Of a stretch of 64,000 nt of DNA, positions 4,563 to 7,500 are shown in pieces (within the stretch, counting starts at the first letter, position 1; each line of letters starts with the position of its first letter). The position numbers were made by a program. The DNA comes from Escherichia coli O127:H6 str. E2348/69 (GTDB taxonomy: Bacteria > Pseudomonadota > Gammaproteobacteria > Enterobacterales > Enterobacteriaceae), in assembly GCF_000026545.1 (NCBI RefSeq), contig NC_011601.1. One strand, 5' to 3'.

Positions 4563-7500
4563 TAGCAATGCGAATATTTGTCTACGGCAGTTTACGCCAC
4601 AAACAAGGCAACAGTCACTGGATGACCAATGCCCAGTTACTGGGCGATTTCAGTATTGATAACTACCAGTTGTATAGCCTGGGCCACTATCCAGGCGCAG
4701 TACCGGGGAACGGAACAGTACACGGTGAAGTTTATCGTATTGACAACGCCACGCTGGCCGAACTTGATGCCTTGCGCACCAGGGGCGGTGAATACGCGCG
4801 CCAGTTGATTCAGACGCCGTACGGGAGTGCATGGATGTACGTTTATCAACGACCCGTCGATGGATTAAAGCTAATTGAAAGCGGCGACTGGTTAGACAGG
4901 GATAAGTAATAATAAAAGCACGCCACCTTCGGGTGGCGTTGTTTTATGCGATGTATCTCGCGATTCTTTTTGTAACTTTCCCATCTTTTGCTTTTCTCTC
5001 CGGGCCGCTTTCCATATCTGCAATCGCATAAAAAACTCTGCTGGCGTTAACAAATGTGCAGGGGTAAAACGGGGGCACGCTTTGAACGGTGAGTATGAGT
5101 GAGGCCGGCTAACTTCCAGCAAGTGGCTATGAACAGCAAAATGGTGGTCGAGCTTAGCTTGTTCTTACCGTTCAAGTCTTTCAACTGCTGAAAATAATAA
5201 TAGTGGAGTAGAGAGTTTATAAATTGCGGGCATAAAAAAACCCTTACTAACCGAAGCCCGGTGTTCAGGGTTATTGCGCCAGAAGAACTTATTTATTCTT
5301 GGCGCGCTCGAAGGAAGCAACGATTTCAGCTTTAGCGGCTTCTGCGTTTTCCCAGCCTTCAACTTTAACCCACTTGCCTTTTTCGAGGTCTTTGTAGTGC
5401 TCGAAGAAGTGAGCGATCTGTGCTTTCAGCAGTTCAGGCAGATCGTTAACGTCTTTAATGTGATCGTATTCTTTGCTCAGCTTGCTGTGCGGAACCGCAA
5501 TCAGTTTCGCATCTTCACCGGCTTCGTCGGTCATTTTCAGTACGCCAACCGGACGGCAGCGGATCACAGAACCCGGCTGCAGCGGGTACGGAGTCGGGAC
5601 CAGTACGTCAACCGGGTCACCGTCCAGAGACAGGGTGTGGTTGATGTAACCGTAGTTGCACGGATAGAACATCGCGGTGGACATGAAGCGGTCAACGAAC
5701 AGTGCGCCGCTCTCTTTGTCGATTTCGTATTTGATCGGATCTGCGTTAGCCGGGATCTCAATAACAACGTAGATGTCTTCCGGCAGATCTTTACCCGCAG
5801 GGACGTTGAGTAAGCTCATGTCTGTTTCCTTTAAAAATATGTGGCAAACAAGTGCCGAGTATTATAGCCAACTCGCGCCGAATGTCTTCGCTTGTTTTCG
5901 TCTTCATTTTCCTTTTTCGCCAGTTTTAAGACGGTATACAGAGCAGGAAAATCCATAACCGTAGCCGCATTTTTCATAGTGAGATGAAAGCGATTACAAA
6001 CTTGTGATTAACGTTTTATTTACTTTTTTGAAGTGTGATGTAACGCAATCCGTTACATAACGAATTGTCTATAGTTTTTTCGCGAACATCTTTTCACCAA
6101 TAATAATTACCCCGACGAGGACAACCCTATGTGGAAACGCTTACTTGTAGTCTCTGCAGTCTCGGCAGCCATGTCGTCTATGGCGTTGGCCGCTCCATTA
6201 ACCGTAGGATTTTCGCAGGTCGGATCGGAATCCGGCTGGCGCGCCGCAGAAACCAATGTGGCGAAAAGTGAAGCCGAAAAACGCGGGATTACGTTGAAAA
6301 TTGCCGATGGTCAGCAAAAGCAGGAAAACCAGATTAAAGCGGTACGTTCCTTCGTCGCGCAAGGGGTGGATGCGATCTTTATCGCTCCAGTGGTAGCGAC
6401 CGGTTGGGAGCCGGTAGTAAAAGAGGCGAAAGATGCCGAAATCCCGGTCTTCTTGCTTGACCGTTCCATCGATGTGAAAGACAAATCTCTCTATATGACC
6501 ACCGTTACTGCCGACAACATCCTCGAAGGTAAGTTGATCGGTGACTGGCTGGTGAAAGAGGTTAACGGCAAACCATGTAACGTGGTTGAGTTACAGGGCA
6601 CCGTTGGGGCCAGCGTCGCCATTGACCGTAAGAAAGGCTTTGCCGAAGCCATAAAGAATGCGCCAAATATCAAAATTATCCGCTCGCAGTCAGGTGACTT
6701 CACCCGTAGTAAAGGCAAAGAGGTCATGGAGAGCTTTATCAAAGCGGAAAACAACGGCAAAAACATCTGCATGGTTTACGCCCATAACGACGACATGGTG
6801 ATTGGTGCAATTCAGGCAATTAAAGAAGCGGGCCTGAAACCGGGCAAAGATATCCTGACAGGCTCTATCGACGGCGTGCCGGACATCTACAAAGCGATGA
6901 TTGATGGCGAAGCGAACGCCAGCGTTGAACTGACGCCGAACATGGCAGGTCCTGCTTTCGATGCGCTGGAGAAATACAAAAAAGACGGCACCATGCCTGA
7001 AAAGCTGACGTTAACCAAATCCACCCTTTATCTGCCTGATACCGCAAAAGAAGAGTTAGAGAAGAAGAAAAATATGGGGTATTGAGGGTTGCTATGCCTG
7101 ATGCCGATTCGTAGGCCGGATAAGGCGCTCGCGCCGCATCCGGCGGTTGTGCGCTGAAGCCTGATGCGACGCTTACCGCGTCTTATCATGCCTACTGGGA
7201 GCACGCTTTACACCGGGGGAAACCATGACGACCGACCAACACCAGGAAATCCTCCGCACCGAAGGATTAAGTAAATTTTTCCCCGGTGTCAAAGCGTTAG
7301 ACAACGTTGATTTCAGCCTGCGCCGTGGCGAAATCATGGCGCTGCTCGGTGAAAACGGGGCGGGAAAATCGACGCTAATCAAAGCATTAACCGGTGTATA
7401 CCACGCCGATCGCGGCACCATCTGGCTGGAAGGCCAGGCTATCTCACCGAAAAACACCGCCCACGCACAACAACTCGGCATCGGCACCGTCTATCAGGAA

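What the first reader, a model, noticed from the sequence alone, without database searches (positions are those of the whole stretch)
4910..5288. chpSB toxin-antitoxin locus absent between ytfP and ppa
In K-12 the chpS-chpB (MazEF-like) pair and a small ORF lie between ytfP and ppa, as I recall. Here the interval is about 380 bp with only a ytfP terminator and no ORF, so this strain lacks that toxin-antitoxin module.
Basis: partly seen in the sequence, partly recalled or inferred. Interest (0 to 1): 0.35.

Follow-up and report, generated by a model that had tools for sequence, protein, structure and literature searches.

The report
Decayed chpSB toxin-antitoxin locus remnant
This strain (E. 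coli E2348/69) has no working ChpS-ChpB toxin-antitoxin pair between ytfP and ppa, but the gap holds a broken fragment of the chpB toxin gene, so the module was lost by deletion; the absence is a common, already published E. coli polymorphism.

Summary
ytfP ends at 4909 and ppa (minus strand) ends at 5289. The 379-bp gap has no intact gene, while K-12 carries chpS-chpB in an 886-bp gap at the same place.

The gap is not just a terminator. Window 5081-5211 is a chpB pseudogene fragment covering codons 7-48 plus the last codon and stop (tblastn E 6e-6, blastn E 2e-13). It has a frameshift and an in-frame TAG.

The whole interval is colinear with the K-12 interval carrying two deletions:
- One of 312 bp removed the operator palindrome, all of chpS and chpB codons 1-6.
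- One of 201 bp lies inside chpB, between TGGTGG direct repeats.

The same junctions occur in CFT073, 042, an O121 strain, a divergent Escherichia lineage and E. albertii, so the deletion allele is old. Its divergence looks neutral.

Among 5426 complete E. coli genomes, 3098 carry chpSB and 2323 carry the relic allele; 188 genomes carry esiB, which in CFT073 sits beside the relic. Pastorello et al. 2013 (PMC3735183) already described this three-state locus.

Verdict: real, ordinary and already known. The relic anatomy is a small added detail.

The parts
4568..4909 (+). ytfP (gamma-glutamylcyclotransferase family), left flank of the locus
   Evidence: 113-aa ORF; annotated as ytfP in the identical E2348/69 record
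4920..4945 (+). ytfP intrinsic terminator: an 8-bp GC-rich stem at 4920-4939 followed by a T-run
   Evidence: Terminator scan; fold -19.5 kcal/mol, z -4.7; conserved across genera
4946..5071 (+). Retained distal part of the old ytfP-chpS spacer, homologous to K-12 interval positions 37-162
   Evidence: About 87% identical to K-12. It ends just before the position where chpSB+ genomes carry the conserved GTTATAC-TTT-GTATAAC palindrome.
5072..5080 (.). 9 nt (GGGGCACGC) at the junction of deletion 1; origin uncertain
   Evidence: Not alignable to K-12. Present at the same place in all six relic alleles, as GGGGCACGC or GGTGCACGC.
5081..5205 (+). chpB pseudogene fragment, codons 7-48, with a net -1 frameshift near the 5' end and an in-frame TAG at 5155-5157
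   Evidence: tblastn: ChpB aa 19-48, 57% identity, E 6e-6; blastn: 80% over 76 bp, E 2e-13. Local alignment of chpB nt 19-129 to 5081-5187: 84 of 112 columns identical. Colinear global alignment.
5206..5211 (+). chpB last codon (116) plus stop codon, fused to codon 48 by the 201-bp internal deletion between TGGTGG repeats
   Evidence: K-12 chpB has TGGTGG at nt 140-145 and 341-346. A virtual K-12 construct with that deletion aligns colinearly with the window and with the 042 and E. albertii alleles.
5212..5288 (-). Original chpB-ppa spacer, including the ppa terminator (stem-loop and U-run at 5233-5272 on the minus strand)
   Evidence: 91-93% identical to K-12 interval positions 809-886; fold shows a stem followed by U7
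5289..5819 (-). ppa (inorganic diphosphatase), right flank of the locus
   Evidence: 176-aa ORF; annotated as ppa

Best explanation
The 379-bp ytfP-ppa interval is the decayed remains of a chpS-chpB (PemIK/MazEF-family type II toxin-antitoxin) operon that once sat here, as it still does in K-12.

Two deletions account for the whole difference from K-12:
- Deletion 1 (312 bp) removed the operator/promoter palindrome, the Shine-Dalgarno sequence, all of chpS and chpB codons 1-6. It left 9 nt of unclear origin.
- Deletion 2 (201 bp, 67 codons) removed chpB codons 49-115, between two TGGTGG direct repeats. That pattern is typical of slipped-strand or microhomology-mediated deletion.

The surviving roughly 130 nt of chpB has since drifted to about 75% identity, with a frameshift and a stop codon. 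It has no promoter, ribosome-binding site or start codon. Nothing in the interval is expected to function except the ytfP and ppa terminators. The strain makes neither the ChpB endoribonuclease nor the ChpS antitoxin.

What is shown: the homology, the colinearity, the lesions, the shared junctions across strains and species, and the population frequencies.

What is inferred: the repeat-mediated mechanism of deletion 2; that toxin inactivation preceded or coincided with antitoxin loss (loss of chpS alone should be toxic); and that the allele predates the E. coli / E. albertii split.
For: - Identity and gene order: the window is E2348/69; K-12 carries chpS-chpB at this site.
- Relic homology: tblastn and blastn hits to chpB at the syntenic position; local alignment of chpB nt 19-129 to 5081-5187 at 75%.
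- Two-deletion model: a K-12 construct carrying both deletions is 382 bp against 379 bp observed and aligns end to end at 80-82% with the E2348/69, 042 and E. albertii alleles; TGGTGG lies at chpB nt 140 and 341.
- Closest source: the relic is nearest Escherichia chpB (75-76%) and further from chpB of other genera (60-64%).
- Operator loss: the palindrome GTTATACTTTGTATAAC and the GGAGG upstream of chpS are conserved in K-12 and in the chpSB+ loci of five other genera aligned, and are missing here.
- Single origin: identical junctions in CFT073, 042, O121, L006 and E. albertii.
- Neutral drift: relic identity between E2348/69 and E. albertii is 83%, against 86-88% at third codon positions of ytfP and ppa.
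- Population frequencies: 3098 of 5426 genomes have chpSB and 2323 of 5426 have the relic allele.
- Ancient residency and repeated loss: chpSB sits at the same site in several Enterobacteriaceae genera, with independent relics in C. sedlakii and E. cloacae.
- Ongoing decay: strain HH45 has an independent, recent partial chpB deletion.
- Published background: the three-state locus (chpBS, esiB, neither) is described in PMC3735183.
Against: - The relic translation gets no Pfam hit on its own; it is only 30 aa, so this is uninformative.
- The 9 nt at the deletion 1 junction are unexplained.
- No clean microhomology was found for deletion 1. A GGTAAA repeat is present, but the sequence after it does not fit.
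- The relic is more diverged from chpB (75% identity) than the flanking spacers are from K-12 (87-93%). Explaining this needs either old age plus recombination in the flanks, or constraint on the spacers.
- Absence of transcription or function of the relic was not tested experimentally.
Confidence: 0.9

Rival explanations
1. Primary absence: this lineage never had chpSB, and K-12-like strains gained it by insertion into an empty ytfP-ppa spacer.
For: Many Enterobacteriaceae species have a short 100-170 bp ytfP-ppa gap with no chpSB. ST131 clade C is reported to have gained chpBS (bioRxiv 10.64898/2025.12.08.692488).
Against: The interval contains colinear chpB coding sequence (codons 7-48 and the terminal codon plus stop) and the chpSB-associated spacers. 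That can only derive from a full module.
Confidence: 0.03
2. The relic has been exapted. The roughly 95-nt hairpin retained from the chpB 5' coding region (window about 5081-5176) would act as a structured RNA or DNA element, for example a transcript stabiliser or insulator between the convergent ytfP and ppa genes, and would be kept by selection.
For: - The hairpin folds better than shuffled sequence: E2348/69 z -3.7, 042 z -4.6, K-12 chpB z -3.06.
- Eight one-sided changes among the alleles keep pairing.
- The right end of deletion 1 sits exactly at the hairpin base.
Against: - None of the 44 predicted pairs shows a compensatory change among relic alleles, and some pairs are broken.
- The E. 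albertii copy is down to z -1.7.
- Simulated neutral decay of K-12 chpB reaches the observed stability in 6-9% of runs.
- Overall divergence is at or above the synonymous rate of the neighbouring genes.
- There is no Rfam match and no plus-strand promoter-like site.
- The hairpin is not conserved in chpB of other genera.
Confidence: 0.04
3. The relic allele is not vertically inherited in E. coli. It would have been introduced, already decayed, from another Escherichia species by homologous recombination through the conserved flanks and then spread among phylogroups.
For: - The locus is mosaic: the upstream spacer of CFT073 is only 80% identical to E2348/69 while its relic is 97% identical.
- The relic allele occurs in strains from different backgrounds (E2348/69, CFT073, 042, O121).
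- Allele turnover is reported within ST131.
Against: Relic divergence between E. coli and E. albertii (17%) matches that of the flanking genes' third codon positions (12-14%). This fits long co-residence better than recent import. The rival changes only the history of the allele, not what the sequence is.
Confidence: 0.2

Closest known systems
chpS-chpB (chpBI-chpBK) type II toxin-antitoxin operon of E. coli K-12 (b4224-b4225), PemK/MazF-family toxin
   Same: Same chromosomal site between ytfP and ppa; same flanking spacers and terminators. Window 5081-5211 is homologous to chpB codons 7-48 and 116 plus stop.
   Different: There is no chpS, no operator palindrome or Shine-Dalgarno sequence, and no chpB start codon. 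Codons 49-115 are deleted, and a frameshift and a stop codon are present. It is not a functional module.
The three-state ytfP-ppa locus described by Pastorello et al. 2013 (mBio, PMC3735183): chpBS, esiB, or neither
   Same: E2348/69 is the 'neither' state, reported there for several intestinal pathogenic strains. Frequencies found here (chpSB 57%, relic allele 43% of genomes, esiB in 3.5%) are in line with their 53% / 32% / 15% of 47 genomes.
   Different: In the passages retrieved, that paper describes the third state as both genes absent. Here that state, and the CFT073 esiB allele examined (L083), are shown to carry a chpB relic.
Decay of the chromosomal ccdO157 toxin-antitoxin system in E. 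coli (Mine et al. 2009, Genetics 181:1557; seen only as an entry in the reference list of PMC7167474)
   Same: A chromosomal type II toxin-antitoxin locus at a fixed intergenic site that is intact in some strains and degraded or absent in others. This comparison rests on my own knowledge of that paper, which was not read here.
   Different: A different toxin family (CcdB versus PemK/MazF) and a different locus. Here there is one old deletion allele shared across species rather than many strain-specific lesions.
Partial chpB pseudogene of E. coli HH45 (NZ_CP116411.1), annotated by PGAP as an incomplete PemK/MazF family toxin
   Same: Same locus, with chpS lost and a truncated chpB left behind.
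   Different: HH45's fragment is 100% identical to K-12 chpSB over about 100 bp (H90) in a 512-bp gap. It is a recent, independent deletion, whereas the E2348/69 relic is about 25% diverged.

Membership tests
Functional ChpS-ChpB type II toxin-antitoxin module | Antitoxin gene chpS immediately upstream of the toxin gene | tested here: not met
   tblastn with ChpS finds nothing above noise in the interval or the window (best E 0.4-1.0). The homologous K-12 segment falls inside deletion 1.
Functional ChpS-ChpB type II toxin-antitoxin module | Intact toxin ORF with a PemK_toxin domain (PF02452) | tested here: not met
   K-12 ChpB hits PF02452 at 1e-25; the relic translation gives no hit. Only codons 7-48 and 116 remain, with a frameshift and a TAG.
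Functional ChpS-ChpB type II toxin-antitoxin module | Promoter/operator region: the palindrome GTTATAC-TTT-GTATAAC and the GGAGG upstream of chpS, conserved in chpSB+ taxa | tested here: not met
   Present in K-12 and in the chpSB+ loci of five other genera aligned; absent from the window allele.
Functional ChpS-ChpB type II toxin-antitoxin module | Location between ytfP and ppa | tested here: met
chpB pseudogene (relic) | Significant, colinear sequence similarity to chpB at the syntenic site | tested here: met
   tblastn E 6e-6, blastn E 2e-13; colinear alignment; closest to Escherichia chpB
chpB pseudogene (relic) | Disabling lesions and neutral evolution | tested here: met
   Two deletions, a frameshift and a stop codon. 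Divergence is comparable to synonymous sites of the neighbouring genes.
esiB allele of the ytfP-ppa locus | esiB (Sel1-like repeat protein that binds secretory IgA) inserted just after ytfP | tested here: not met
   CFT073 has esiB between ytfP and the relic interval. The window has no such insert.
Known structured RNA families (Rfam 15) | Covariance-model match in the interval | tested here: not met
   Only a sub-threshold S15 leader hit inside ppa (E 0.29); nothing in 4910-5288.

The most novel reading that the evidence does not exclude
The intact chpSB allele and the relic allele would be a long-lived presence/absence polymorphism, older than the E. coli / E. albertii split and maintained by balancing selection. 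For example, ChpB could be useful in some niches or against some phages and costly in others.

What fits this reading:
- The same deletion junctions occur in E. coli, a divergent Escherichia lineage and E. albertii.
- Intact chpSB occurs in E. coli, E. whittamii and other Escherichia species.
- Both classes diverge roughly in step with their flanking genes.

The co-occurrence across species is shown. Selection, as opposed to recombinational shuffling of a neutral variant, is not.
Probability: 0.12. Interest if true: 0.45.

Novelty: already known. Interest (0 to 1): 0.12.

Why it matters
It matters little beyond bookkeeping.

- **Strain biology:** E2348/69, and about 43% of complete E. coli genomes in this collection, lack the ChpB endoribonuclease. 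Conclusions about chpB drawn from K-12 therefore do not transfer to these strains.
- **Annotation:** the relic is unannotated in the E2348/69 RefSeq record.
- **Direction of change:** the relic shows loss from an ancestral resident module, not gain in K-12. It is a clean example of how a toxin-antitoxin pair can be lost safely: the toxin is disabled together with, or before, the antitoxin. This ordering is inferred.
- **Evolutionary question:** sharing of the allele across species raises a modest question about how long such polymorphisms persist.

Tried and rejected
- **chpS remnants:** tblastn at E up to 100 on the interval found nothing above noise.
- **Relic and spurious ORFs against Pfam:** the 76-aa and 65-aa minus-strand ORFs and the relic translation gave no hits.
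- **Rfam on 4500-6200 at E <= 1:** nothing in the interval.
- **Promoter scan:** one weak minus-strand site only, no more than shuffled sequence gives.
- **Selection on the retained chpB hairpin:**
  - No compensatory pairs among the alleles.
  - Not conserved in chpB of other genera.
  - Neutral-decay simulation gives 6-9% of runs at least as stable.
  - Rejected as unsupported.
- **GGTAAA microhomology as the cause of deletion 1:** the repeat exists upstream (GGGGTAAAACG) and at the chpB start (ATGGTAAAG), but the 12 nt that follow in the relic do not match the predicted product. Left open.
- **The 9-nt filler as a diverged remnant of K-12 'GTAGCACCG':** 5 of 9 matches, not significant.
- **First global alignment:** a very low gap-extension penalty scattered the relic into meaningless 5-nt blocks. 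It was replaced by local and construct-based alignments.
- **Literature searches for a prior description of the chpB relic**: none found in the held library. The library is incomplete and held neither Fiedoruk et al. 2015 nor Ramisetty & Santhosh 2016, which I recall as covering toxin-antitoxin distribution in E. coli and which may be relevant.

Full report
**What the window is**

The region 4568-5819 is 100% identical to E. coli E2348/69, an enteropathogenic strain (NZ_CP059840.2). The local gene order is:
- tamB, 786-4565 (+)
- ytfP, 4568-4909 (+)
- a 379-bp gap, 4910-5288
- ppa, 5289-5819 (-)
- ytfQ, 6129-7085 (+)

RefSeq annotates nothing in the gap.

**Checking the recollection**

In K-12, both the PGAP record and NC_000913.3 show ytfP, chpS (b4224), chpB (b4225) and ppa in that order. 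The ytfP-ppa interval there is 886 bp. PMC5120126 gives the same order, with 211 bp upstream of chpS and 79 bp downstream of chpB, and mentions yzfA next to ytfP. The observation (short interval, no chpSB) and the remembered gene order are therefore both correct.

- tblastn with K-12 ChpB hits window 5116-5205 (residues 19-48, 57% identity, E 6e-6 against the whole 64-kb window, 4e-8 against the interval alone).
- blastn of the K-12 interval hits 5115-5187 at 80% identity (E 2e-13).
- ChpS gives only noise.
- Read in the frame of the hit, the sequence is PASGYEQQNGGRA*LVLTVQVFQLL against ChpB PASGHEQQGAGRPALVLSVQAFNQL. The in-frame TAG is at 5155-5157.
- A local DNA alignment extends the homology to chpB nt 19-129 = window 5081-5187, with 84 of 112 columns identical and small indels that shift the frame.

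**Full anatomy**

K-12 chpB has TGGTGG at nt 140-145 and again at nt 341-346. I built a virtual K-12 interval with two deletions:
- Interval positions 163-474, which cover the chpS promoter region, all of chpS and chpB codons 1-6.
- chpB nt 146-346.

The construct is 382 bp against 379 bp observed. It aligns end to end, with only a few 1-2-nt gaps, to the E2348/69, 042 and E. albertii alleles at 80-82% identity.

Every part of the 379 bp is therefore accounted for:
- ytfP terminator, 4920-4945
- retained upstream spacer, 4946-5071
- 9 unexplained nt at the first junction, 5072-5080
- chpB codons 7-48, 5081-5205
- chpB codon 116 plus stop, 5206-5211
- original chpB-ppa spacer with the ppa terminator, 5212-5288

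An alignment of the region upstream of chpS from K-12 and five other genera shows a conserved palindrome, GTTATACTTTGTATAAC, and GGAGG just before the chpS start. The window allele lacks both. The relic therefore has no operator/promoter, no ribosome-binding site and no start codon, and it carries a frameshift, a stop codon and a 67-codon internal deletion. It is a dead gene fragment.

**Origin and age**

- The relic is closest to Escherichia chpB (75-76%) and more distant from chpB of Lelliottia, Enterobacter, Pseudocitrobacter, Kluyvera and an unnamed enterobacterium (60-64%). It therefore derives from the resident Escherichia gene.
- Exactly the same two junctions are found in CFT073, 042, an O121 strain, a divergent Escherichia lineage that is a separate GTDB species representative (L006, labelled E. 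coli SCPM-O-B-8794) and E. albertii. This indicates a single old origin.
- Between E2348/69 and E. albertii the relic is 83% identical, the upstream spacer 86.5%, and third codon positions of ytfP and ppa 86-88%. The relic evolves about as fast as, or slightly faster than, synonymous sites. This fits neutral drift and descent alongside the flanking genes.
- Intact chpSB in E. whittamii and other Escherichia species also diverges from K-12 roughly in step with its flanks: chpS/chpB third positions 82-90%, ytfP and ppa 89-99%, the tamB 3' end 76-86%.
- Both allele classes thus appear old within the genus. Whether this reflects selection or recombinational shuffling is not resolved. CFT073's upstream spacer is only 80% identical to E2348/69 while its relic is 97% identical, which shows mosaicism.

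**Wider context of the site**

ytfP loci from 80 species representatives show several states:
- chpSB at the same site in several Enterobacteriaceae genera (ChpB 64-78% identical).
- Many species with a bare 100-170 bp gap.
- Some with 1.6-3.5 kb of other cargo.
- Independent relics in Citrobacter sedlakii (ChpB aa 63-107) and Enterobacter cloacae (ChpS aa 9-31).

E. coli HH45 has a recent, independent partial chpB deletion that PGAP flags as a pseudogene. chpSB is thus an old resident of this intergenic site that has been lost repeatedly.

**Population frequency and prior knowledge**

Among 5426 complete E. coli genomes:
- 3098 carry full-length chpSB.
- 2323 carry the relic interval.
- 188 carry esiB. 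In CFT073 esiB is inserted just after ytfP, ahead of the same relic interval.

Pastorello et al. 2013 (PMC3735183) already reported that this locus holds chpBS (53%), esiB (15%) or neither (32%) in 47 genomes, with 'neither' seen in intestinal pathogenic strains. A 2025 preprint reports chpBS among genes gained by ST131 clade C. The absence of chpSB in strains such as E2348/69 is therefore published knowledge. I found no description of the chpB relic in the held literature, but that library is incomplete.

**A side observation, tested and set aside**

- The retained chpB segment coincides with a long hairpin in the 5' coding region of Escherichia chpB (K-12 -45.9 kcal/mol, z -3.06).
- The relic still forms it: E2348/69 z -3.7, 042 z -4.6, E. 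albertii z -1.7.
- Among relic alleles there are no compensatory changes.
- The hairpin is not conserved in chpB of other genera.
- Random mutation of the K-12 segment at the observed divergence gives equal or better stability in 6-9% of simulations.
- This is not significant evidence for selection on the structure.

**Mechanism and consequence**

- Shown: the module is gone and the remnant is disabled.
- Inferred: deletion 2 arose by slippage or microhomology between the TGGTGG repeats.
- Inferred: either deletion 2 came first and disabled the toxin, or deletion 1 removed the promoter, antitoxin and toxin start in one step. Loss of chpS alone with an active chpB should be counter-selected.
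- The expected phenotype is small. [quoted passage not shown]

**Verdict**

The 'nothing there' description is wrong in detail, because the interval holds a chpB pseudogene relic. The phenomenon is ordinary and already published, so interest is low.

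Noticed in passing
window 47258-64000: Downstream of leuX tRNA-Leu(CAA) (47258-47342) lies a strain-specific island. 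It encodes a recombinase (50315-50884), a DEAD/DEAH helicase (52150-53994), HNH endonucleases, an AbiTii-domain protein (60038-60940), an integrase (61028-62239) and a type I restriction HsdR (62628 to the window end). It looks like a defence-gene island at the classic leuX hotspot.
   Followed up: no
window 45914-46042: yjgR (44399-45913) is followed after 129 bp by ahr (46043-47062). K-12 carries the L-idonate genes idnR-idnT-idnO-idnD-idnK between them, so this strain lacks the idn cluster.
   Followed up: partly
window 5081-5176; L001 2317-2413: The 5' coding region of Escherichia chpB forms a long hairpin (K-12 z -3.06) that the relic retains (z -3.7). It is not conserved in chpB of other genera, and its retention in the relic is not significant against simulated neutral decay.
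   Followed up: yes
L083 1834-3868 (CFT073): esiB is inserted directly after ytfP, upstream of the same chpB relic interval. CFT073's upstream spacer is only 80% identical to E2348/69 while its relic is 97% identical, which indicates a recombination mosaic inside the intergenic region.
   Followed up: partly
L088 2198-2709 (E. coli HH45): An independent, recent decay state of the same locus. The gap is 512 bp and holds a partial chpB, 100% identical to K-12 over about 100 bp, annotated by PGAP as an incomplete PemK/MazF toxin.
   Followed up: partly
L009, L010, L014-L016, L018, L022-L024, L027, L031, L036, L039, L043 and others (ytfP-ppa gaps): In several Citrobacter, Enterobacter, Lelliottia and Salmonella arizonae representatives the ytfP-ppa gap holds 1.6-3.5 kb of unrelated cargo. 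C. sedlakii (L025) and E. cloacae (L031) carry separate ChpB or ChpS relics. The site is a recurrent insertion and decay hotspot across Enterobacteriaceae.
   Followed up: no
window 7114-7192, 13351-13428, 23604-23719, 41090-41284: Rfam gathering-level matches: two naRNA4 (REP-derived) elements, the Mg riboswitch (expected upstream of mgtA, from my recollection of the K-12 map) and Ysr276. All are expected E. coli features.
   Followed up: no
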